DNA from: Escherichia coli
GTDB lineage: Bacteria > Pseudomonadota > Gammaproteobacteria > Enterobacterales > Enterobacteriaceae
Assembly (NCBI RefSeq): GCF_003334255.1
Contig: NZ_QOWU01000068.1
DNA: 22,032 nucleotides
Direction: 5' to 3' (one strand)
Part shown: positions 1 through 22,032 of the stretch, piece after piece
Position numbering within the stretch: the stretch's first letter is position 1
How the letters are laid out: the number at the start of each line of letters is the position of its first letter
Notes under the pieces: model-generated
What the model was told of the DNA's origin: nothing
Database searches by the model: none
The model's input: only the letters and a program-made list of their open reading frames with translations
Position numbers and translations under genes: made by a program

Positions 1-9
1 ATATCCATA

Positions 10-1473
10 ATGAGTAAAAAGTTTACAATGACACTCCTGTCATCTTCTCTGGCCGGGCTTCTGGTGATGAGTGGTGGGGTGAGTGCGCAGGAAGAAAAAT
101 ACACAGTGCCGTATGCCATAGGTGAAGGTAAATGGGGGAATACCTATGAAGTTGTAAAGACAGGCGGTAATGGTAACTTCAGATACGAAGTAAAAGAGAA
201 AAACGGCAAGAAGAGGTCACTTTTCACATTTGATTCAAAAGGGGATGTAATAATCAATGGCAGTGGCATTACGTACACAATTCATGACGGTGCGCTGAAC
301 GATTTTGCTCAAACAGCTGAGAAAAAAAAGAATGGACAGTCTCAGTCGCACAGAATGACTGATAGCGTTGTTCGTGATGTATATAACAAAGTATACAGTC
401 TGCAGAGAACAAAAATTACAGGTTTCAGCGTCGAAGATGGGGAGAATGGGAAGGTTTCTCTGGGTAGCGATGCGAAAGCCTCTGGTGAGTTCTCAGTAGC
501 TGTTGGTAACGGTGCTAAGGCTACAGAAAAAGCGTCAACATCAGTGGGATCATGGTCTGCAGCACTAGGACGGCAAAGTGTGGCTTTAGGTGTGGGAACA
601 TATGCTTATGCAAATGCATCTACAGCCGCCGGAACAGCTGCTTATGTTGATGGTTCTGCTATTTATGGTACCGCTATAGGTAATTACGCAAAAGTGGATA
701 AAAATGCAACTGAAGGTGTTGCATTAGGAGCCAAAGCAATATCTGCACATAAAAACAGTGTGGCCTTAGGGGCAAACTCCCGAACCACTCGTGATAATGA
801 AGTTTACATTGGTTATGAAGAGGCTTCTGGTAAAGCATATAAAACCCGCACCCTTGGAGGATTGACTGATGGAACTCGCCCATCCGATGCAGCAACTGTT
901 CGTCAGGTTGATCGGGTAAAAGACAGTGTTGAGCAACTGGCTCAGGATACGAATACCCGCCTTGTAGTCGAAGCGAAAAAGTCTCGTGAATATACAGACT
1001 CCAGAACGACAGTTGGTGTGAACCCTGACGGAAAACTTACCCGTGCAGAAGGTGCGACTAAAACTATCGCCGTCAATGATGGTCTCGTTGCTCTGTCTGG
1101 CAGAACAGACCGTATTGATTATGCAGTTGGTAGCGTTGACCGCCGGGTTACTAAAAATACACAGGCTATTCAGTCCAATACTCGCCAGTTGCAGGAGCAT
1201 AATGCACGCCTGAACAGCCAGCAGCGTCAAATTCGTGAGAATCACGAAGAGATGAAGCGTGCAGCAGCACAGAGTGCAGCGCTGGCGGGGCTTTTCCAGC
1301 CGTACAGTGTGGGGAAATTCAACGCCACTGCTGCCCTGGGGGGGTACAGTGATAAACAGGCTGTTGCCGTGGGTGTTGGTTACCGTTTCAACGAGCAGAC
1401 CGCAGCGAAAGCGGGTATTGCAGCGAGTGATGGCGATGTGTCCTACAACATGGGCGTTAACTTCGAGTTTTAA
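10..1473 (+). CDS. Trimeric autotransporter adhesin, YadA/Eib-like (signal peptide, YadA-type head repeats, neck, coiled-coil stalk, C-terminal YadA membrane anchor)
   Basis: 487-aa ORF. N-terminus [29 protein letters not shown] looks like a Sec signal peptide. Repeated head motifs [10 protein letters not shown] / [10 protein letters not shown] / [15 protein letters not shown] / NSVALGANS. Neck-like [25 protein letters not shown]. Heptad-rich stalk ([33 protein letters not shown]). C-terminus [47 protein letters not shown] is a typical YadA anchor ending in F. The signal peptide resembles E. coli Eib proteins as far as I recall (unverified). Confidence 0.8.
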
Positions 1474-1497
1474 TTGCTGACAGTGACATGAAGCATG

Positions 1498-1530
1498 ACG
1501 GCAGGCGTGGAGTTTTGCCTGCCGTTTTTT
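1498..1530 (+). terminator. Rho-independent terminator immediately downstream of the adhesin gene
   Basis: 9-bp perfect stem ACGGCAGGC (1498-1506) / GCCTGCCGT (1517-1525), 10-nt loop, followed by a T-run (TTTTTT to 1530). Begins 25 nt after the adhesin stop codon. Confidence 0.6.
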
Positions 1531-1559
1531 CTCATGTGAGCATGAAACAGGTGACAGCG

Positions 1560-2033
1560 ATGAAAGTGATTCTGGCGACCCGCAACCGTTATCTGGAGTA
1601 TGGCCTGCAGCAGATGCTTGAGGGGTACAGGATAATACTGGCGAGGGAGTTTTTTACACCAGAGAACAGGAAGAGCGTACCGGCACATGATGAGTCATGG
1701 GTGATAATCTGTGATGCCCTCCTTGGCAGGCTGATGTGCTGCATGTTTCAGGGGCGCCGTTATCTTCAGATTGATGCGGAAGATGTTACGGGGCGCCTGG
1801 AGACGTACAGGAAAATCCGGAATGGTGAGTGGGTACATAATACGTATGCGCGACCACTGACGATGTCCGAGATGGTGGTGATGTTTGGATACGTGTACCG
1901 GGAGTCAAAGCCCTGCCATCTTGCCCGTGAAATGGGGATAAACACGAAGACGGTGAACACCTTTCTGTATCTGGGGCTTGGTAAAAACGGTCTTAAGTAC
2001 AGGAGTGTGAAGCACCTGGTTGGACGTGCGTAG
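1560..2033 (+). CDS. Putative small transcriptional regulator with C-terminal LuxR/GerE-type HTH
   Basis: ORF track gives 1488-2033. The start at 1488 lies inside the terminator hairpin and has no SD; ATG at 1560 (MKVILATRN...) has AGGTGA 5 nt upstream. C-terminal segment LTMSEMVVMFGYVYRESKPCHLAREMGINTKTVNTFLYLGLGKNGL matches the spacing of the LuxR/GerE HTH pattern (LT.RE.EVL ... S.KEIA..L.IS.KTV). N-terminal part has no recognisable receiver residues. Family assignment is by eye only. Confidence 0.45.
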   Translation: MKVILATRNRYLEYGLQQMLEGYRIILAREFFTPENRKSVPAHDESWVIICDALLGRLMCCMFQGRRYLQIDAEDVTGRLETYRKIRNGEWVHNTYARPLTMSEMVVMFGYVYRESKPCHLAREMGINTKTVNTFLYLGLGKNGLKYRSVKHLVGRA

Positions 2034-2210
2034 CCGGAATGCATATTCGTGAGTCGGGTAATGAGAGTTGAACGGTGGCAGTGAGAATGGAACAGAAAAA
2101 AATCAGATGCGGAAGGCGGAAATACACAGCGGGTGCGATGTGCTTCATGCTGTTTGTATGGCTGGGTGGTGTGGTGACATTCTGTGTGCTGGCCGCTCTG
2201 ATAATGCAGT

Positions 2211-2236
2211 AAAAAAAGGGGAGCTGGTGACTCCCC
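2211..2236 (-). terminator. Rho-independent terminator for minus-strand transcripts (YkgJ-like gene / serT read-through)
   Basis: Stem GGGGAG (2218-2223) / CTCCCC (2231-2236), 7-nt loop. The plus-strand A7 at 2211-2217 gives a U7 tail on the minus-strand RNA. Confidence 0.55.
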
Positions 2237-2390
2237 GTGCTGATGTCACTGGATAAACCAGTCGTCAGCGGTTTCCCAGGCTTCCGAGTCGGCAAAACTA
2301 GTTGACGTCTAATACCAGAGCCTGTAACTGTTTTTCGTCCATAAATTAACCTTCATTTGATGCTGGATTGAACATATCAAAATCAGGCAA

Positions 2391-2741
2391 TTACACAAAT
2401 CTATGTACAGGCTCTATTTCCGGAAGTCCGTATTTTGCCCGTGCGCGGCTACATGCTTCATTCGCGATGTCATTTTCGCCGGACATTGCGAATTCCCTGC
2501 ATGTGGACGGACGGTTTTTGTAAACAGAGCAATATGCGTTTTCACCCGGAGTTCCCGCCAGAGCGACACATCGGGGCTTTTTCTGATTGGTGCCGCTCAT
2601 ACAGCGATGAAAAGGAGATATTTGCTCAGTGAGAGTGGCCGGGACGTTTCCGCCAGCATCATCGGCTTCAGCCCAGTAAAAAGAGACGCGGAAAAATACA
2701 CAACAGGCACCACACGTCATGCATGGATTGGGGTTATTCAT
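2391..2741 (-). CDS. YkgJ/UPF0153-family putative zinc/iron-chelating protein (CxxCxxCC)
   Basis: 116-aa ORF. N-terminal motif [11 protein letters not shown] plus further Cys (CMSGT, CVALAG, CSVY, CREF) is typical of the YkgJ-type Cys-rich domain. Overlapping plus-strand ORFs 2403-2756 and 2435-2632 have no motifs. Start-codon context is weak. Confidence 0.65.
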
Positions 2742-2837
2742 AATTCATCGGTATAGCGATAAATCGTAAAGAGAACAATGTACCTAGTGTGTATTGAGCT
2801 AAATATACCAATTAGTATACCAAGTGTATACTAAGAG

Positions 2838-2870
2838 CAAAAAAGAAAGGGGCTACCATTTGGTAACCCC
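2838..2870 (-). terminator. serT intrinsic terminator
   Basis: Directly 3' of the tRNA. Minus-strand RNA GGGGUUACC-loop-GGUAGCCCC (includes one U-G wobble) followed by UUUCUUUUUU (plus-strand A-tract 2838-2848). Confidence 0.7.
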
Positions 2871-2879
2871 TTGATTATT

Positions 2880-2967
2880 TGGCGGAAGCGCAGAGATTCG
2901 AACTCTGGAACCCTTTCGGGTCGCCGGTTTTCAAGACCGGTGCCTTCAACCGCTCGGCCACACTTCC
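2880..2967 (-). tRNA. serT: tRNA-Ser (anticodon UGA)
   Basis: Reverse complement reads GGAAGTGTGGCCGAGCGGTTGAAGGCACCGGTCTTGAAAACCGGCGACCCGAAAGGGTTCCAGAGTTCGAATCTCTGCGCTTCCGCCA: 88 nt, long variable arm, anticodon loop CUUGAAA, encoded CCA end. Matches E. coli serT from memory. Confidence 0.95.
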
Positions 2968-2979
2968 GGAATGACGCGC

Positions 2980-3008
2980 ACTATAAACATCCCGATGCGG
3001 CGTGTAAA
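2980..3008 (-). promoter_or_regulatory. serT sigma70 promoter (-35 TTTACA, 17-bp spacer, -10 TATAGT, GC-rich discriminator)
   Basis: On the minus strand: TTTACA (3003-3008), 17-nt spacer, TATAGT (2980-2985), then GCGCGTC before the mature tRNA 5' end at 2967. A GC-rich discriminator is typical of stringently controlled stable-RNA promoters. Confidence 0.55.
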
Positions 3009-3009
3009 C

Positions 3010-3393
3010 CCCTAATTTGTTTGTTTGCCTGAAAAACAGCCAAAAGTGCATTGATAGCGTGAAATAACAGCAGATTGATCATTTCATCACCATGAATTCC
3101 TTCTCTTTTACTCGTTTAGCAACCGGCTAAACATCCCCACCGCCCGGCCAAAAGAAAAATAGGTCCATTTTTATCGCTAAAAGATAAATCCACACAGTTT
3201 GTATTGTTTTGTGCAAAAGTTTCACTACGCTTTATTAACAATACTTTCTGGCGACGTGCGCCAGTGCAGAAGGATGAGCTTTCGTTTTCAGCATCTCACG
3301 TGAAGCGATGGTTTGCCTTGCTACAGGGACGTCGCTTGCCGACCATAAGCGCCCGGTGTCCTGCCGGTGTCGCAAGGAGGAGAGACGTGCGAT
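3010..3393 (+). promoter_or_regulatory. hya operon promoter and 5' leader region (divergent from serT)
   Basis: About 380 bp of AT-rich non-coding sequence between the serT promoter and the hyaA start; SD AAGGAGGA at 3374-3381. Individual promoter and regulator sites are not resolved from sequence alone. Confidence 0.4.
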
Positions 3394-4512
3394 ATGAATA
3401 ACGAGGAAACATTTTACCAGGCCATGCGGCGTCAGGGCGTTACCCGGCGCAGCTTTCTCAAATATTGTAGTCTGGCTGCCACGTCGCTGGGATTAGGCGC
3501 GGGAATGGCACCAAAGATTGCCTGGGCGCTGGAGAACAAACCGCGCATTCCGGTGGTATGGATCCACGGTCTGGAATGCACCTGCTGTACCGAATCTTTT
3601 ATCCGCTCCGCTCACCCACTGGCGAAGGACGTCATCCTTTCCCTGATTTCCCTCGATTACGACGATACTTTGATGGCTGCCGCCGGAACCCAGGCGGAAG
3701 AAGTCTTTGAAGACATCATCACGCAATACAATGGCAAATATATCCTCGCAGTAGAAGGTAATCCGCCGCTGGGCGAGCAGGGGATGTTCTGTATCAGCAG
3801 CGGTCGACCGTTTATTGAGAAACTCAAACGTGCCGCTGCCGGAGCCAGCGCGATTATCGCCTGGGGAACCTGCGCGTCCTGGGGCTGCGTGCAGGCCGCG
3901 CGACCCAATCCGACGCAGGCAACGCCTATCGACAAAGTCATCACCGACAAACCCATTATCAAAGTACCTGGCTGCCCGCCGATCCCGGATGTGATGAGCG
4001 CCATCATTACTTACATGGTGACCTTTGATCGCTTGCCAGATGTCGACAGAATGGGCCGTCCGCTGATGTTCTATGGTCAGCGAATCCACGATAAATGCTA
4101 TCGCCGCGCCCACTTCGACGCCGGAGAGTTCGTCCAGAGTTGGGATGATGACGCTGCCCGCAAAGGTTACTGCCTGTACAAAATGGGCTGCAAAGGGCCT
4201 ACCACCTATAACGCCTGTTCCTCCACACGCTGGAATGATGGCGTTTCTTTCCCAATCCAGTCTGGTCACGGCTGCCTGGGCTGTGCGGAAAATGGTTTCT
4301 GGGATCGCGGTTCGTTCTACAGCCGCGTGGTCGATATTCCGCAAATGGGTACTCATTCCACCGCCGATACCGTCGGTTTAACCGCGCTTGGCGTGGTGGC
4401 AGCGGCTGTTGGTGTGCACGCAGTCGCCAGCGCCGTTGACCAGCGCAGACGTCATAACCAGCAACCTACAGAAACCGAACATCAGCCAGGCAATGAGGAT
4501 AAACAGGCATGA
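3394..4512 (+). CDS. hyaA: Hydrogenase-1 small subunit (NiFe hydrogenase, Tat signal)
   Basis: 372 aa from ATG 3394 (the ORF track starts at an upstream in-frame GTG). Twin-arginine motif RRSFLK, Cys clusters for FeS centres, C-terminal hydrophobic anchor. Matches E. coli HyaA from memory. Confidence 0.95.
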
Positions 4513-6302
4513 GCACTCAGTACGAAACTCAGGGATACACCATCAATAATGCCGGACGCCGCCTGGTGGTCGACCCGATTACGCGCATCGAAGGCCACAT
4601 GCGCTGCGAAGTGAATATTAACGATCAGAATGTGATCACCAATGCCGTCTCCTGCGGCACCATGTTTCGCGGGCTGGAGATCATCCTACAAGGGCGCGAC
4701 CCGCGCGATGCGTGGGCGTTCGTTGAACGTATCTGCGGCGTCTGTACTGGCGTACACGCCCTGGCTTCGGTTTACGCCATCGAAGATGCTATCGGTATTA
4801 AAGTGCCGGACAACGCCAATATCATCCGCAACATTATGCTGGCAACGCTCTGGTGCCACGATCATCTGGTGCACTTCTATCAGCTTGCCGGGATGGACTG
4901 GATCGATGTGTTAGATGCGCTGAAAGCCGACCCGCGGAAAACCTCCGAACTGGCGCAAAGTCTCTCCTCTTGGCCGAAATCATCCCCTGGCTATTTCTTC
5001 GACGTACAAAACCGCCTGAAAAAATTTGTTGAAGGCGGGCAGTTGGGGATCTTCCGCAATGGCTACTGGGGGCACCCGCAGTACAAACTGCCGCCAGAAG
5101 CTAACCTGATGGGCTTTGCCCACTATCTCGAAGCTCTCGATTTCCAGCGTGAAATTGTCAAAATCCACGCGGTCTTTGGCGGTAAAAACCCGCATCCAAA
5201 CTGGATTGTCGGCGGGATGCCTTGCGCCATCAACATTGACGAAAGCGGCGCGGTCGGGGCAGTCAATATGGAACGCCTGAACCTGGTGCAGTCAATTATC
5301 ACCCGCACGGCGGACTTCATTAACAACGTGATGATCCCCGACGCCTTAGCCATCGGTCAGTTCAACAAACCGTGGAGCGAAATCGGCACTGGTCTTTCTG
5401 ATAAATGCGTTCTCAGCTACGGCGCATTCCCGGATATTGCCAACGACTTTGGCGAGAAAAGTCTGCTGATGCCTGGCGGCGCGGTGATTAACGGCGACTT
5501 CAACAATGTGCTGCCAGTGGATTTGGTTGATCCGCAGCAGGTGCAGGAGTTTGTCGACCACGCCTGGTATCGATATCCCAACGATCAGGTCGGGCGTCAT
5601 CCGTTCGATGGCATCACCGACCCGTGGTACAACCCCGGCGATGTCAAAGGCAGCGATACCAACATTCAGCAGCTGAATGAACAGGAACGCTACTCGTGGA
5701 TCAAAGCGCCACGCTGGCGCGGTAACGCGATGGAAGTGGGGCCGCTGGCGCGCACGTTAATCGCTTATCACAAAGGCGATGCTGCGACCGTTGAGTCGGT
5801 CGATCGCATGATGTCGGCGTTGAACCTGCCGCTTTCCGGTATCCAGTCAACGTTAGGCCGCATTTTGTGCCGCGCGCACGAAGCGCAGTGGGCCGCAGGT
5901 AAGTTGCAGTATTTCTTCGACAAGCTGATGACCAACCTGAAAAACGGCAATCTCGCCACTGCTTCCACGGAAAAATGGGAACCTGCAACCTGGCCGACAG
6001 AGTGCCGTGGTGTCGGTTTTACCGAAGCGCCGCGCGGGGCGTTAGGCCACTGGGCCGCCATTCGCGATGGCAAGATTGATCTCTACCAGTGCGTGGTGCC
6101 GACCACCTGGAACGCCAGCCCGCGCGATCCCAAAGGGCAGATTGGCGCTTATGAAGCGGCGCTGATGAACACCAAAATGGCGATCCCCGAGCAACCGCTG
6201 GAGATCCTGCGTACTCTGCACAGCTTTGACCCGTGCCTCGCCTGTTCAACACACGTGCTGGGCGACGACGGTAGCGAGCTGATCTCCGTGCAGGTGCGTT
6301 AA
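4509..6302 (+). CDS. hyaB: Hydrogenase-1 large subunit
   Basis: 597 aa. N-terminal RIEGH and [11 protein letters not shown] motifs and C-terminal DPCLACSTH motif (NiFe ligands). Start overlaps the hyaA stop (ATGA). Confidence 0.95.
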
Positions 6303-6320
6303 CAGCGAAGGAGAATCATC

Positions 6321-7028
6321 ATGCAACAGAAAAGCGACAACGTTGTCAGCCACTATGTCTTTGAAGCGCCAGTGCGCATCTGGCACTGGTTGACGGTGTT
6401 ATGCATGGCGGTGTTGATGGTCACCGGATACTTTATCGGCAAGCCGCTACCTTCCGTCAGCGGCGAGGCGACGTATCTGTTCTATATGGGCTACATCAGG
6501 TTAATTCACTTCAGCGCCGGGATGGTTTTTACCGTGGTTTTGCTGATGCGGATCTACTGGGCTTTTGTTGGCAATCGATACTCCCGCGAGCTGTTTATCG
6601 TGCCGGTATGGCGTAAAAGCTGGTGGCAGGGCGTGTGGTATGAAATCCGCTGGTATCTGTTTCTGGCAAAACGTCCGAGTGCCGATATAGGCCATAATCC
6701 CATCGCCCAGGCGGCGATGTTCGGCTATTTCCTGATGTCGGTCTTTATGATCATCACTGGTTTTGCGCTGTACAGCGAACACAGCCAGTACGCTATTTTT
6801 GCGCCGTTCCGTTATGTGGTGGAATTTTTCTACTGGACGGGTGGCAACTCAATGGACATTCACAGCTGGCATCGGCTGGGGATGTGGCTGATTGGCGCGT
6901 TTGTGATCGGTCATGTCTACATGGCGCTGCGTGAAGACATCATGTCCGACGACACGGTGATCTCCACCATGGTCAACGGCTACCGTAGCCACAAATTTGG
7001 CAAAATAAGTAACAAGGAGCGTTCATGA
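6321..7028 (+). CDS. hyaC: Hydrogenase-1 cytochrome b subunit
   Basis: 235-aa polytopic membrane protein with conserved His; position and size match hyaC. Confidence 0.93.
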
Positions 7029-7612
7029 GCGAGCAACGCGTGGTGGTCATGGGGCTGGGCAACCTGCTGTGGGCCGATGAAGGCTTCGGCGTGCGGGTGG
7101 CGGAACGGCTGTATGCCCATTACCACTGGCCCGAGTATGTGGAGATTGTCGATGGCGGTACTCAGGGACTGAACTTGCTGGGGTATGTCGAAAGCGCCAG
7201 CCATCTGTTGATTCTCGATGCCATTGACTACGGGCTGGAACCTGGAACGCTGCGAACCTATGCCGGAGAACGCATTCCGGCTTATCTCAGCGCGAAGAAA
7301 ATGAGCCTGCATCAGAACAGTTTCTCCGAAGTGTTGGCGCTGGCGGATATCCGCGGACATCTGCCAGCACATATTGCCCTCGTCGGTCTGCAACCCGCAA
7401 TGCTCGACGACTACGGCGGTAGCCTGAGCGAACTGGCACGGGAGCAACTGCCCGCTGCGGAACAGGCGGCGCTGGCGCAGCTTGCTGCGTGGGGAATTGT
7501 GCCGCAACCGGCTAATGAATCGCGCTGTCTCAATTATGACTGTCTGTCGATGGAAAATTACGAAGGCGTTCGCTTGCGCCAGTACCGGATGACACAGGAG
7601 GAGCAGGGATGA
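7025..7612 (+). CDS. hyaD: Hydrogenase-1 maturation endopeptidase
   Basis: 195 aa, N-terminus [17 protein letters not shown] is typical of HyaD/HybD/HycI proteases; 4-nt overlap with hyaC. Confidence 0.93.
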
Positions 7613-8007
7613 GCAACGACACGCCATTTGATGCGTTGTGGCAACGAATGCTGGCGCGCGGCTGGACGCCAGTCAGTGAATCCCGTCTTGACGACTGGCT
7701 TACGCAAGCGCCAGACGGCGTGGTGTTATTAAGCAGTGACCCGAAACGCACGCCAGAGGTCAGCGATAATCCGGTAATGATTGGCGAATTACTGCGCGAG
7801 TTTCCCGACTATACATGGCAGGTGGCGATTGCTGACCTTGAGCAGAGCGAAGCCATCGGCGATCGCTTTGGCGTCTTTCGCTTTCCTGCCACTTTAGTGT
7901 TTACCGGCGGAAACTATCGCGGCGTGCTGAATGGTATTCACCCGTGGGCGGAACTGATAAACCTGATGCGCGGGCTTGTCGAACCGCAGCAGGAGCGTGC
8001 CTCATGA
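7609..8007 (+). CDS. hyaE: Hydrogenase-1 operon protein HyaE (chaperone-like)
   Basis: 132 aa, synteny and size; 4-nt overlap with hyaD. Confidence 0.9.
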
Positions 8008-8861
8008 GCGAAACTTTTTTCCATCTGCTGGGGCCAGGAACGCAACCGAACGATGACAGTTTCAGCATGAATCCACTGCCGATCACCTGTCAGGTGAATG
8101 ATGAACCGAGTATGGCGGCCCTGGAGCAATGTGCTCACAGCCCGCAGGTGATTGCGCTGTTAAACGAGTTACAACATCAACTAAGCGAACGCCAACCGCC
8201 GTTGGGCGAGGTGCTGGCAGTCGATCTGTTAAATCTCAACGCCGACGATCGTCACTTTATCAATACGCTTCTCGGGGAAGGGGAAGTGTCAGTGCGCATT
8301 CAGCAGGCTGACGACAGTGAAAGTGAAATACAGGAGGCGATCTTCTGCGGATTATGGCGGGTGCGCAGACGTCGCGGCGAAAAGTTGCTGGAGGACAAAC
8401 TGGAGGCTGGCTGCGCGCCGCTGGCGTTGTGGCAGGCGGCAACGCAAAATCTCTTGCCGACAGATTCGCTGTTACCGCCGCCCATTGATGGCCTGATGAA
8501 TGGCCTACCGTTGGCGCATGAGTTACTGGCACATGTACGTAACCCCGACGCGCAGCCGCACAGCATTAATCTGACGCAATTACCCATCAGCGAGGCTGAT
8601 CGGCTTTTTCTCTCACGTCTCTGTGGGCCGGGAAATATTCAGATTCGTACCATTGGCTATGGCGAGAGCTATATCAACGCCACGGGGTTACGCCATGTCT
8701 GGCATTTACGCTGTACGGACACCTTAAAAGGCCCGTTACTGGAAAGTTATGAAATCTGCCCAATACCGGAAGTGGTGCTGGCAGCGCCAGAAGATTTGGT
8801 CGACTCTGCGCAGCGGCTTAGCGAGGTATGTCAGTGGCTGGCGGAAGCTGCACCGACGTAA
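8004..8861 (+). CDS. hyaF: Hydrogenase-1 operon protein HyaF
   Basis: 285 aa from ATG 8004 ([11 protein letters not shown]), overlapping the hyaE stop. The ORF track extends to an upstream in-frame ATG at 7944 inside hyaE, which is unlikely to be used. Confidence 0.9.
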
Positions 8862-8994
8862 AAAGACGGTAAGTATCGCTTTCAGTCTTATGAATATCGC
8901 AATCGGCGAATACCTCTGGTCGTAGAGTTTCAGGATAAAGAGGGAGATCTACCATTATCGGGTTATTTTTCTCTCTTCGCCTACAGGAGTGCGC
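8862..8994 (+). promoter_or_regulatory. hyaF-appC intergenic region (app operon promoter region)
   Basis: 133-bp non-coding gap with SD AGGAG 5 nt before the appC ATG. In E. coli the app genes have their own promoter in this gap (established knowledge); exact elements not resolved here. Confidence 0.35.
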
Positions 8995-20693: not shown

Positions 20694-20999
20694 TTAGCGT
20701 GTAGTGGACGTGGTGGTTGAGGTGTTATGAGAACCGCCATCGCCACTGTCATTTGCTGCAACAACTGCCAACGTCGCCACACCAACAGCCGTTGCCACAC
20801 CGACAACTGTCGCCGTGCCGACAGCGCCAGCAGCCACGCCACCAGTGGTAGTAGCAGTCGTGGTTGCGCCGGTAGTGGTCGTTGTGGTGCCAGTAGTACC
20901 CGTCGTTGCCTCGGTCCCGTTTGTTGCTTCAGGGGCAGCAAACGCAGCTGGCGTCGTCAACATGAAGGCCATAAGGATTGCAGAAAGCTTGTGTTTCAT
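20694..20999 (-). CDS. gfcA: Threonine-rich group-4 capsule protein (YjbE-like)
   Basis: 101 aa from ATG at 20997-20999 (MKHKLSAILMAFMLTTPAAFA signal peptide), followed by a Thr/Gly/Ala/Val low-complexity tract. The ORF track extends 6 codons upstream. Confidence 0.88.
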   Translation of the reverse strand: MKHKLSAILMAFMLTTPAAFAAPEATNGTEATTGTTGTTTTTTGATTTATTTGGVAAGAVGTATVVGVATAVGVATLAVVAANDSGDGGSHNTSTTTSTTR

Positions 21000-21440
21000 A
21001 ACTTTTCCTTTATTCATCGCATGGACAATACGTACGCTTGAGATCAGGATTGTCTACTTTGAGTATAACATCCTTGTGAAATCTCCCTTTCCTCATACCG
21101 CTTGCACTATATACTGCGGGTAGGAAAGGCGCGCAGAGGGAAATATAAGATTGTTAACTATCCCCCTCTGGAAATACGACTTGTGAGCATAAGATAAATC
21201 TTAGCAAAATACAAATTAAAGATAAGGAAATTGTTACGAAAGCTATTAATTATTGTTGGTAATATAGTTTCAAGTGGTACTATAACTGGCTGTTAAATGG
21301 CATTTATAACTATTAGGTGCAGAGATATTCGCTTAAATGGATTAGTTTCTTTGTGGAAAAGTAACTGATGTTATAATGTATGATGTTGACTATTGCACTA
21401 TTCCAATAAAACCAGTCAGCTTTAAACAAGCAGCGTCATA
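21000..21440 (-). promoter_or_regulatory. gfc operon promoter / upstream regulatory region (AT-rich), also the cspH 3' flank
   Basis: About 440 bp of markedly AT-rich non-coding DNA upstream of gfcA with no IS sequence in it; contains inverted repeats CAGAGGG...CCCTCTG (about 21150-21187). Confidence 0.4.
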
Positions 21441-21653
21441 TTAAGAGAGATAAACATTTGCCGCTGTTGGTCCTCGCAGGCCATTTACGCGGCAAAATTC
21501 CACACGTAATCCTGGTATAAGCACTTCTGCGTCGCGGGGAGTGAATGCGGAAATATGGACCTGAACTTCTTTACGACCGTCGGAGGGGATAATGAATCCT
21601 TTGCCGCTTTTGCGATCAAAGGTTTTGACAATTCCTGTCATTTTACGGGACAA
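21441..21653 (-). CDS. cspH: Cold-shock-like protein CspH
   Basis: 70-aa cold-shock-domain protein ([26 protein letters not shown]...). The first codon in this sequence is TTG (plus-strand caa at 21651-21653), with SD AAGGA 6 nt upstream. Confidence 0.88.
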
Positions 21654-21938
21654 ACAAATTCCTTACTGAAAATACTGCGCTGCACTATACGGGGTTAATA
21701 AAATAAAGCCAGCGATATTTAAGACCGCCGGACGGCTAAAATAAAATTTGCTTAATCTCAATTATCATGCGTTAATAGCTGCGTCGGTTTGAAAGACAGA
21801 CAGCATACAAAGTAGTTTACTAAAGCAGTTCTCATTATCAGGCATTATCCCCTTCTTTTGAGTCTCTCTCCTGAACACTAAGTAGTTTCTGTATTAAAGC
21901 CCTGTTTGCCGAAAGGCCCAAAATGAAGGAAGTAAAAT

Positions 21939-21955
21939 ATGTCTAATAAAATGAC
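21939..21955 (+). pseudogene. cspG: cspG 5' fragment (first 17 nt, MSNKMT), interrupted by IS1
   Basis: ATGTCTAATAAAATGAC encodes M-S-N-K-M-T, the cold-shock protein N-terminus, divergent from cspH as cspG is in E. coli. The reading frame then runs straight into the IS1 terminal repeat and stops after 7 IS1-derived codons. Confidence 0.6.
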
Positions 21956-22032
21956 GGTGATGCTGCCAACTTACTGATTTAGTGTATGATGGTGTTTTTG
22001 AGGTGCTCCAGTGGCTTCTGTTTCTATCAGCT
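21956..22032 (+). mobile_element. IS1 insertion sequence, left (insA-proximal) end, truncated by the window edge
   Basis: GGTGATGCTGCCAACTTACTGATTTAGTGTATGATGGTGTTTTTGAGGTGCTCCAGTGGCTTCTGTTTCTATCAGCT matches the IS1 terminal inverted repeat and the start of insA (GTG GCT TCT GTT TCT ATC AGC = M/V-A-S-V-S-I-S) as I recall it. Junction position is ambiguous by 1-2 nt. Confidence 0.9.

What the first reader, a model, noticed from the sequence alone, without database searches (positions are those of the whole stretch)
1..2880. Accessory module on the 3' side of serT: adhesin, HTH regulator and YkgJ-like gene where the K-12 layout has yccA
In E. coli K-12 as I recall it, the order is yccA - serT - hyaA with only a short gap between yccA and serT. 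Here the 2.9 kb on the 3' side of serT instead carry a trimeric autotransporter adhesin, a small LuxR-type regulator candidate and a Cys-rich YkgJ-family gene, and no YccA-like ORF appears in any frame. The adhesin gene looks AT-richer than the flanking core (24 G+C in its first 60 nt by hand count). tRNA 3' ends are classic integration sites, but no integrase or att repeat is visible within the window. The element may extend further left, or this may be an islet rather than an integrase-borne island.
Basis: partly seen in the sequence, partly recalled or inferred. Interest (0 to 1): 0.6.

Follow-up and report, generated by a model that had tools for sequence, protein, structure and literature searches.

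The report
EibE prophage end at serT
The 2.9 kb beside the serT tRNA gene is the cargo end of an already published E. coli prophage (P-EibE) that carries the antibody-binding adhesin EibE, so it is real acquired DNA but an ordinary, known case.

Summary
Window 1-2879 holds a 487-aa trimeric autotransporter gene, a 157-aa gene, and a YkgJ-family gene, ending at the 3' end of serT (2880-2967, minus strand). No yccA is present.

It is not an islet. Window 1-2495 is 100% identical to GenBank AF151676, "phage P-EibE" of E. coli ECOR-9, which carries eibE and orf-156E. In complete genomes with the same DNA, this stretch is the last 2.9 kb of a 50.3-kb lambdoid prophage. A tyrosine integrase lies at the far end next to yccA, and a 60-bp direct repeat equals the 3' 60 nt of serT. 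The phage brings its own serT terminator, and the tRNA stays intact.

Of 5426 complete E. coli genomes, 4664 have the uninterrupted K-12 junction and only 6 have this arrangement.

The "LuxR-type" reading of orf-156E is only weakly supported. It has no Pfam hit, but the predicted fold and sub-threshold profile matches point to NarL/FixJ-type regulators.

The ykgJ-like gene is a captured paralogue, 82% identical in protein to K-12 YkgJ, and a 98-bp MITE has rewritten its 3' end.

Verdict: already known, low interest.

The parts
1..2879 (.). Right-end cargo (moron) region of a P-EibE-type lambdoid prophage. The prophage body lies to the left, outside the window.
   Evidence: Window 1-2495 is 100% identical to AF151676 phage P-EibE. 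Window 1-2880 is 100% identical to UCPROB-002, where it follows the tail-fibre genes of a 50.3-kb prophage. GC is 47.8% against 52.1% for the rest of the window.
10..1473 (+). eibE: 487-aa trimeric autotransporter, E. coli immunoglobulin-binding protein EibE.
   Evidence: Nucleotide-identical to eibE of AF151676. EibD crystal structure 2xqh matches at E 3.9e-92 over residues 151-396. Pfam YadA_anchor matches at E 2.3e-15, plus YadA_head repeats. phrog_10464 matches at E 3.5e-249.
1497..1526 (+). Intrinsic-terminator-like stem-loop after eibE.
   Evidence: 11-bp stem with 7 GC pairs and a T-run. Annotated as stem_loop 2458-2485 in AF151676.
1560..2033 (+). orf-156E: 157-aa protein of a small phage-restricted family. 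Predicted reduced receiver-like domain plus a LuxR/GerE-like helix-turn-helix.
   Evidence: Identical to ORF-156E of AF151676. Homologues start at MKVILATRN. phrog_6585 matches at E 3.1e-93. No Pfam domain. Foldseek top 21 hits are NarL/FixJ-type regulators. Sub-threshold profile hits to LuxR HTHs.
2087..2212 (+). Unannotated 41-codon ORF: basic N-terminus followed by one hydrophobic helix.
   Evidence: phrog_9340 matches at E 6.6e-15. The ORF is kept, with many synonymous changes, in a prophage of 91% DNA identity.
2218..2236 (-). Terminator-like stem-loop with its T-run on the minus strand, probably ending the ykgJ-like transcript.
   Evidence: The stem is kept by compensatory changes in the STEC17-183 prophage.
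2317..2415 (.). 98-100-bp miniature element related to the end of IS1414/IS285. It is inserted at the 3' end of the ykgJ-like gene.
   Evidence: 100% identical to copies in Stx2/Stx2c phages. In phage Nil2 it is annotated 'putative passively mobilized insertion similar to IS285'. It also matches the transposase-proximal end of IS1414. Homology to chromosomal ykgJ starts only at about 2425.
2391..2741 (-). ykgJ-like gene: 116 aa with a CxxCxxCC metal-chelating domain. A phage-borne paralogue of chromosomal ykgJ.
   Evidence: Pfam PF03692 matches at E 7.6e-12. 82% protein identity to K-12 YkgJ over 109 aa, plus a 7-aa C-terminal extension. About 81% DNA identity to chromosomal ykgJ in most E. 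coli.
2802..2830 (-). Sigma-70 promoter-like site upstream of the ykgJ-like gene.
   Evidence: TATACA-17-TATATT with an extended TG. This is a consensus match only.
2847..2872 (-). Phage-supplied intrinsic terminator for serT. It replaces the chromosomal terminator, which stays at the other prophage end.
   Evidence: 11-bp stem and T-run. The sequence differs from the K-12 serT terminator, which is found next to yccA at attL in UCPROB-002.
2880..2939 (.). att core: a 60-bp sequence equal to the 3' 60 nt of serT (anticodon stem through CCA end). This is the right copy of the prophage's flanking direct repeat.
   Evidence: An exact 60-bp second copy lies 50,283 bp away, between integrase and yccA, in UCPROB-002. 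There is only one copy in the window.
2880..2967 (-). serT, tRNA-Ser(UGA). It is intact after integration.
   Evidence: ARAGORN. Rfam tRNA at 57.5 bits. 88/88 identical to K-12 serT.

Best explanation
Window 1-2879 is the right-hand cargo region of a P-EibE-type lambdoid prophage of about 50 kb, integrated into the 3' end of serT.

**Integration.** A phage tyrosine integrase recombined attP with attB. attP carries a copy of the last 60 nt of serT plus its own terminator. attB is the serT 3' half. The tRNA gene is rebuilt intact, the original serT 3' fragment and terminator stay at the far end, and yccA is pushed about 50 kb away.

**Cargo, between the tail-fibre genes and attR:**
- eibE, a trimeric autotransporter with a YadA-type beta-barrel anchor, a coiled-coil stalk and a beta-roll head. 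For this exact sequence it was published as a non-immune immunoglobulin-binding surface protein. It has its own terminator.
- orf-156E, probably a phosphorylation-independent transcription factor with a receiver-like domain and a LuxR-type HTH. Its target is unknown.
- A 41-codon gene for a small membrane protein.
- A captured ykgJ paralogue whose 3' end was rewritten by a MITE.

**Shown here:** the identity to P-EibE, the att repeat, the integrase and phage genes in genomes with identical DNA, the empty site in most E. coli, and the domain content.

**Inferred:** that the full prophage is present in the source strain of the window, that orf-156E is a DNA-binding regulator, and which promoters are used.
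For: - **Identity to a published phage.** Window 1-2495 is 100% identical to AF151676 (phage P-EibE of ECOR-9: eibE, orf-156E, stem-loops).
- **Prophage context.** Window 1-2880 is 100% identical to UCPROB-002 and 99.9% identical to JE86-ST02 and JE86-ST05. In UCPROB-002 and JE86-ST05 it directly follows J, lom, tail-fibre and DUF4376 genes of a lambdoid prophage. In UCPROB-002 the terminase-to-integrase gene set ends with a tyrosine integrase next to yccA.
- **att repeat.** An exact 60-bp direct repeat equals the serT 3' end, with copies 50,283 bp apart. The K-12-type terminator is at attL and a different terminator is at attR.
- **Empty site is the norm.** 4664 of 5426 genomes have the uninterrupted junction, and 6 of 5426 have this arrangement.
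- **Same slot used by another prophage.** The serT prophage of O157:H7 DEC4E carries tccP2/espV in the same position.
- **Recent horizontal spread.** There are 0 mismatches to UCPROB-002 across 1-3123, then about 1.5% divergence in hya-gfc. Against JE86-ST05 there are 9 mismatches in 1-3448, then 0.6% divergence.
- **Atypical composition.** eibE has GC3 of 0.39.
- **EibE family.** 2xqh matches at E 3.9e-92 and YadA_anchor at E 2.3e-15.
Against: - The window starts 9 bp upstream of eibE. No phage structural gene, integrase or second att copy is seen in the source sequence itself. The prophage body is inferred from other genomes and from AF151676, which extends 960 bp further left into a tail-fibre-associated gene.
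- In UCPROB-002 several prophage genes are pseudogenes, including a frameshifted J and truncated Ea22 and DUF551 genes. The element may be defective in some hosts.
Confidence: 0.93

Rival explanations
1. Prophage remnant: in the source strain only the right end (eibE to attR) survives, the rest having been deleted. The module would then be a fixed islet of phage origin, not a complete or inducible prophage.
For: The window gives no sequence left of eibE. UCPROB-002 already has several pseudogenes in this prophage.
Against: UCPROB-002 and JE86-ST05, the two full-coverage genomes examined, carry phage morphogenesis genes directly upstream of this stretch, and UCPROB-002 has the whole prophage through to the integrase. 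AF151676 from ECOR-9 extends into the upstream tail-fibre-associated gene. The DNA is 100% identical between diverged chromosomes, which argues for recent transfer as a phage.
Confidence: 0.06
2. Ancestral core arrangement: eibE, orf-156E and ykgJ-like next to serT is the old E. coli state, and K-12 is a deletion variant.
For: None found.
Against: 4664 of 5426 complete genomes have the K-12-type junction and only 6 have this one. A 60-bp att duplication and an integrase flank the element. Composition is atypical.
Confidence: 0.005
3. Integrase-less islet or non-phage island (for example an integrative element) inserted at serT, carrying an adhesin and its regulator.
For: tRNA 3' ends also host non-phage islands. 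The window itself shows no phage structural gene.
Against: The identical DNA elsewhere is contiguous with portal, capsid, tail, tape-measure, J, lom and tail-fibre genes. The element ends in a lambda-type integrase, a DUF4224 gene in the excisionase position, and an exonuclease region. The GenBank record names it phage P-EibE.
Confidence: 0.01

Closest known systems
Prophage P-EibE of E. coli ECOR-9 (GenBank AF151676; Sandt & Hill, Infect Immun 2000, cited in PMC5450701 ref. 3)
   Same: Window 1-2495 is 100% identical at the nucleotide level, covering eibE, orf-156E and the annotated stem-loops.
   Different: The deposited record stops at window position 2495. It does not show the complete ykgJ-like gene, the phage-borne serT terminator or the attachment site in serT, all of which the window adds. 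I could not read the 2000 paper, so I cannot say whether the serT site was reported elsewhere.
EibD, EibC, EibA, EibF and EibG: immunoglobulin-binding trimeric autotransporters of E. coli (EibD structures 2xqh and 2xzr)
   Same: Same architecture: signal peptide, N-terminal domain, YadA-like beta-roll head, neck/saddle, coiled-coil stalk and YadA anchor. The EibD fragment matches at E 3.9e-92. All four ECOR-9 eib genes are followed by an orf-156 homologue in their GenBank records.
   Different: Different allele: about 78-84% DNA identity to eibD and eibC, with coverage only to window 1970. Different prophages use different attachment sites. For example, an eib-like gene sits next to yecD in STEC17-183, with dinI-like in place of ykgJ-like.
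Lambdoid prophage at serT in E. coli O157:H7 (strain DEC4E) carrying tccP2/espV
   Same: Same attachment site and same gene order: J, lom, tail fibre, cargo, serT, hyaA. Cargo sits in the post-tail-fibre slot.
   Different: The cargo is type III effector genes, here pseudogenes, instead of eibE, orf-156E and ykgJ-like.
NarL/FixJ (LuxR/GerE-type HTH) regulators, especially atypical non-phosphorylated ones such as GadE and DctR of E. coli
   Same: - Predicted alpha/beta N-terminal domain plus a C-terminal four-helix HTH.
- Foldseek top 21 hits are FixJ, RcsB, VpsT and EvgA.
- The motif LTxSEmvVm...laxEMGIxxKTVxTf aligns in register with LuxR HTHs.
- The start MKVILATRN resembles the GadE and DctR N-termini (weak).
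   Different: - 157 aa against about 175-210 aa.
- No Pfam GerE or Response_reg hit.
- No HMMER link to the large family in 1.84 billion representatives; only 37 family members were found.
- The acidic pair after strand 1 is replaced by an invariant T-R-N.

Membership tests
Eib family (E. coli immunoglobulin-binding trimeric autotransporter adhesins) | C-terminal YadA-type membrane anchor (trimeric beta-barrel) | tested here: met
   Pfam PF03895 matches residues 429-487 at E 2.3e-15. YadA anchor 2lme matches at E 1.1e-17.
Eib family (E. coli immunoglobulin-binding trimeric autotransporter adhesins) | YadA-like head repeats and an Eib-type neck, saddle and coiled-coil stalk homologous to EibD | tested here: met
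   YadA_head repeats. Residues 151-396 align to EibD 2xqh at E 3.9e-92, and residues 364-418 align to 2xzr.
Eib family (E. coli immunoglobulin-binding trimeric autotransporter adhesins) | Sequence identity to a named, experimentally characterised member | tested here: met
   100% nucleotide identity to eibE of AF151676.
Eib family (E. coli immunoglobulin-binding trimeric autotransporter adhesins) | Non-immune binding of immunoglobulin Fc | not testable with these tools
   The GenBank record names the product an immunoglobulin-binding protein, and PMC5450701 cites the ECOR-9 eib genes.
Temperate lambdoid prophage integrated in a tRNA gene | Direct repeat of the tRNA 3' part at both ends (attL and attR) | tested here: met
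   An exact 60-bp repeat has one copy at window 2880-2939. The second copy lies next to yccA in UCPROB-002, 50,283 bp away. The second copy is not in the window itself.
Temperate lambdoid prophage integrated in a tRNA gene | Tyrosine integrase at one end, with phage morphogenesis, lysis and regulation genes between the repeats | tested here: met
   Seen in UCPROB-002, and the morphogenesis genes also in JE86-ST05, both carrying identical or near-identical DNA. Not observable in the window.
Temperate lambdoid prophage integrated in a tRNA gene | Empty attachment site in related genomes | tested here: met
   4664 of 5426 complete E. coli genomes have an uninterrupted yccA-serT-hyaA junction, including K-12.
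Temperate lambdoid prophage integrated in a tRNA gene | Inducibility and production of particles | not testable with these tools
   Needs mitomycin C induction. Some copies carry pseudogenes.
LuxR/GerE-type (NarL/FixJ class) transcription regulators (orf-156E) | Significant match to the GerE/LuxR HTH profile | tested here: not met
   No Pfam hit except RcsC ABL at E 0.14. No NCBIfam hit. Only sub-threshold profile hits: PDB LuxR HTHs at E 0.06-0.2 and hhalign against EvgA at E 1.3e-3 with probability 18%.
LuxR/GerE-type (NarL/FixJ class) transcription regulators (orf-156E) | Two-domain fold: receiver-like alpha/beta domain plus a four-helix HTH | tested here: inconclusive
LuxR/GerE-type (NarL/FixJ class) transcription regulators (orf-156E) | Phospho-acceptor pocket of a true receiver (acidic pair after strand 1, Asp after strand 3) | tested here: not met
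   T7-R8-N9 is invariant in place of the acidic pair. Only D52 after strand 3 is conserved. If it is a regulator, it is a phosphorylation-independent one.
YkgJ / CxxCxxCC (PF03692) cysteine-cluster proteins | Pfam PF03692 match and the conserved Cys cluster | tested here: met
   E 7.6e-12 over residues 6-97. 82% identity to K-12 YkgJ, including the CMTCGACC motif.

The most novel reading that the evidence does not exclude
orf-156E belongs to a small, E. coli-phage-restricted family that has never been characterised. The family would be a stripped-down, phosphorylation-independent regulator with a receiver-like domain and a LuxR-type HTH. It sits just after the tail-fibre genes in many lambdoid and Stx phages. 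It might be a prophage-encoded transcription factor that controls the neighbouring cargo gene, eib, or host genes during lysogeny. All four ECOR-9 eib genes keep an orf-156 copy immediately downstream.
Probability: 0.3. Interest if true: 0.4.

Novelty: already known. Interest (0 to 1): 0.12.

Why it matters
It matters little beyond correct annotation. The stretch should be labelled as the attR-proximal cargo region of prophage P-EibE, with eibE as a known immunoglobulin-binding and serum-resistance adhesin, and not as a new island.

Four small additions to the record:
- The attachment site of this Eib phage is the 3' 60 nt of serT, and the phage supplies a replacement terminator.
- About 14% of complete E. 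coli genomes have the serT junction split (762 of 5426). One examined, O157:H7 DEC4E, holds a lambdoid prophage whose post-tail-fibre slot carries T3SS effector pseudogenes instead.
- The orf-156 family is a candidate phage regulator worth a simple genetic test.
- The phage carries a captured ykgJ paralogue modified by a MITE.

Tried and rejected
- **Primary papers.** I tried to read Sandt & Hill 2000 (PMC97405), Sandt et al. 2002 (PMC135156) and the EibF paper (PMC98814). What those papers say about inducibility, Ig classes bound and IbrAB control is taken only from citing papers or from memory.
- **Family searches for orf-156E.** NCBIfam gave nothing for orf-156E, the ykgJ-like protein or the 62-aa ORF at 2068-2256.
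- **Profile comparisons for orf-156E.** Against single K-12 sequences, GadE gave E 0.061, DctR 0.2, MatA/EcpR 0.088 and EvgA 0.0013. These are too weak to assign membership. K-12 ykgJ lies beside the ecp operon with its LuxR-type MatA, and I considered a link to the phage's orf-156E/ykgJ-like pair. I dropped it because orf-156E shows no meaningful similarity to MatA.
- **Exhaustive HMMER search with the orf-156 profile.** It found only 37 representatives, all family members or fragments, with no bridge to LuxR proteins.
- **orf-156 as an eib-specific partner.** This idea is weakened. Homologues sit after tail-fibre genes in phages without eib, such as phage 2B8, and a truncated remnant sits there in VT2-Sakai (933W L0123 equivalent).
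- **In-window repeat search.** It gave only short chance-level repeats and no att copy.
- **Source strain.** It was not identified. The core part of the window differs by 0.6-1.5% from the genomes that share the prophage end.
Full report
**1. What is in the sequence**

ARAGORN finds one tRNA gene in the window: tRNA-Ser(UGA) at 2880-2967 on the minus strand. Rfam agrees. It is 88/88 identical to K-12 serT, so the 3' side of serT is window 1-2879.

That stretch holds three genes:
- A 487-aa ORF at 10-1473 on the plus strand.
- An ORF at 1560-2033 on the plus strand. The longer version starting at 1488 begins inside a terminator stem, and all homologues start at MKVILATRN.
- A 116-aa ORF at 2391-2741 on the minus strand.

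hyaA follows serT on the other side.

K-12 has yccA, a 206-bp gap, serT, then hyaA. No YccA-like sequence exists anywhere in the window; the best tblastn hit has E = 3.1.

One small correction: 24 G+C is the count for window bases 1-60, while the first 60 nt of the gene have 27. The compositional point still holds. eibE is 47.3% GC with GC3 of 0.39. The hya, app, etk and gfc genes have GC3 of 0.47-0.70. The codon-usage distance of eibE to those genes is about twice that of core genes of similar length.

**2. What it is**

A megablast of 1-2880 against phage records gives 100.0% identity over 1-2495 to GenBank AF151676, "Bacteriophage P-EibE" from E. coli ECOR-9. That record annotates eibE (immunoglobulin-binding protein EibE), orf-156E and three stem-loops. 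It simply ends at window position 2495.

Against 5426 complete E. coli genomes, only six carry the whole 2880 bp. Two are 100% identical (UCPROB-001 and UCPROB-002), two are 99.9% (JE86-ST02 and JE86-ST05), and two are about 96%.

In UCPROB-002 the stretch is the last 2.9 kb of a lambdoid prophage. Upstream lie terminase, portal, capsid, tail, tape-measure, J, lom, tail-fibre and DUF4376 genes. Further on come lysis genes, Q, replication genes, repressor-region genes and an exonuclease. A tyrosine integrase lies immediately next to yccA. JE86-ST05 shows the same layout from terminase to serT.

**3. Attachment site**

I compared three sequences: the integrase-yccA junction of UCPROB-002, the window, and K-12. 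They share an exact 60-bp core, TGGCGGAAGCGCAGAGATTCGAACTCTGGAACCCTTTCGGGTCGCCGGTTTTCAAGACCG. This core is the 3' 60 nt of serT, from the anticodon stem to the CCA end.

- At the yccA side (attL), the K-12-type intergenic region and serT terminator are followed by this half-tRNA and then phage DNA.
- At the window side (attR, 2880-2939), the core is part of an intact serT.

Downstream of the intact serT lies a different stem-loop plus T-run, at window 2847-2872. The phage therefore carries a replacement 3' half and its own terminator.

The two repeat copies are 50,283 bp apart in UCPROB-002.

**4. Is it common or ancestral?**

I used a 341-bp K-12 probe spanning the yccA-serT gap, serT and the start of the serT-hyaA spacer. 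It is uninterrupted in 4664 of 5426 complete genomes and split in the remaining 762.

One of the split genomes, O157:H7 DEC4E, was inspected. It has another lambdoid prophage at serT, with tccP2 and espV pseudogenes in the slot occupied here by eibE. serT is thus used as a prophage site by at least one other lambdoid phage, the K-12 layout is the majority state, and this particular cargo is rare.

Against UCPROB-002, the window shows zero differences over 1-3123 and then about 1.5% divergence across hya-gfc. Against JE86-ST05 there are 9 mismatches in the first 3448 bp and then 0.6% divergence. Nearly identical phage DNA in chromosomes that differ this much indicates recent horizontal spread.

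**5. The cargo genes**

*eibE.* The protein has a Sec-type signal peptide by inspection, YadA head repeats and a YadA anchor (Pfam). Residues 151-396 align to the EibD crystal structure 2xqh at E 3.9e-92. A plus-strand terminator follows at 1497-1526. Its promoter lies left of the window. According to citing papers, the ECOR-9 eib genes encode multimeric IgG-Fc-binding proteins that are up-regulated in static culture (PMC5450701), and the unlinked ibrAB island enhances Eib expression (PMC7649339, citing Sandt et al. 2002).

*orf-156E.* The evidence on this gene is mixed.
- *Sequence searches.* It has no Pfam or NCBIfam domain. It belongs to phrog_6585, of unknown function. All homologues are E. 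coli proteins or unnamed metagenome-derived sequences, and all named ones are hypothetical proteins. An exhaustive profile search of 1.84 billion representatives finds only 37 members or fragments.
- *HTH motif.* The C-terminal motif LTMSEMVVMFGYVYR...LAxEMGIxTKTVNTFLY is nearly invariant. It aligns in register with LuxR/GerE HTHs at sub-threshold scores: VqmA and GerE at E 0.06-0.2, and EvgA by hhalign at E 1.3e-3.
- *Receiver pocket.* The acidic pair of a true receiver is replaced by an invariant T-R-N.

My reading is a reduced, phosphorylation-independent receiver-like/LuxR-HTH protein. This is plausible but not established.

The family is not tied to eib. Homologues sit right after the tail-fibre genes in phages that lack eib, such as phage 2B8, and a truncated remnant sits there in VT2-Sakai (933W L0123 equivalent).

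*ykgJ-like gene.* It hits Pfam CxxCxxCC at E 7.6e-12. It is 82% identical to K-12 YkgJ over all 109 residues, with seven extra C-terminal residues. Closer E. coli alleles, at 91-92% identity, also exist. DNA homology to chromosomal ykgJ starts only at about window 2425.

The last codons and the stop come from a 98-100-bp element at 2317-2415. This element is 100% identical to copies in Stx2 and Stx2c phages. In phage Nil2 it is annotated as a "putative passively mobilized insertion similar to IS285". It also matches the transposase-proximal end of IS1414. It has short terminal inverted repeats by inspection.

A promoter-like site at 2830-2802 and a minus-strand terminator at 2236-2218 bracket the gene.

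**6. Mosaic structure**

Other eib prophages share the window only up to 1970, 2214 or 2285. Beyond that point they carry a dinI-like gene and sit at other sites, for example next to yecD in STEC17-183. The segment 2286-2879 is specific to the six serT-integrated copies. It comprises the MITE, the ykgJ-like gene and the serT terminator.

**7. Verdict**

The element is the right arm of the published prophage P-EibE integrated in serT, so it is already known.

The main uncertainty is that the prophage body is not in the window. It is inferred from genomes with identical DNA and from AF151676.

The only mildly open question is the function of the orf-156 family.

Noticed in passing
window 2317-2415: A 98-100-bp miniature element related to the end of IS1414/IS285. 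It is 100% identical to copies upstream of stx2 in Stx2/Stx2c phages. Here it supplies the last codons and the stop of the ykgJ-like gene.
   Followed up: partly
window 2087-2212 (+): An unannotated 41-codon ORF with a basic N-terminus and one hydrophobic helix. It matches phrog_9340 at E 6.6e-15. It is conserved with many synonymous changes in a prophage of 91% DNA identity, and the stem-loop after it shows compensatory changes. It is absent from the RefSeq and GenBank annotations examined.
   Followed up: partly
window 21939-22032: An IS1 end (21958-22032, 100% identical to IS1 copies on thousands of plasmids) interrupts cspG after its sixth codon. The genomes sharing the prophage end have an intact cspG.
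   Followed up: partly
window 1-3123 versus 3124-21957: The prophage end plus serT and about 150 nt beyond are identical to UCPROB-002, while the adjacent core genes differ by about 1.5%. The sharp switch lies about 150 nt past serT, not at the att core.
   Followed up: partly
L008 (E. coli O157:H7 DEC4E) 4546-6128: The serT prophage of O157:H7 carries tccP2 (frameshifted) and an espV fragment in the same post-tail-fibre slot that holds eibE here.
   Followed up: no
L011 (phage 2B8) 4001-4543; L012 (VT2-Sakai) 3944-4225: orf-156 homologues or remnants lie immediately after the tail-fibre genes in lambdoid and Stx phages that have no eib gene. In VT2-Sakai the match covers 59% of the query in two pieces and looks like a truncated remnant.
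   Followed up: partly
L010 (JE86-ST05) 23394-24538 and 35945-37084: In JE86-ST05, which carries the same prophage, hyaA is annotated as frameshifted and gfcE has an internal stop. Both are intact in the window.
   Followed up: no
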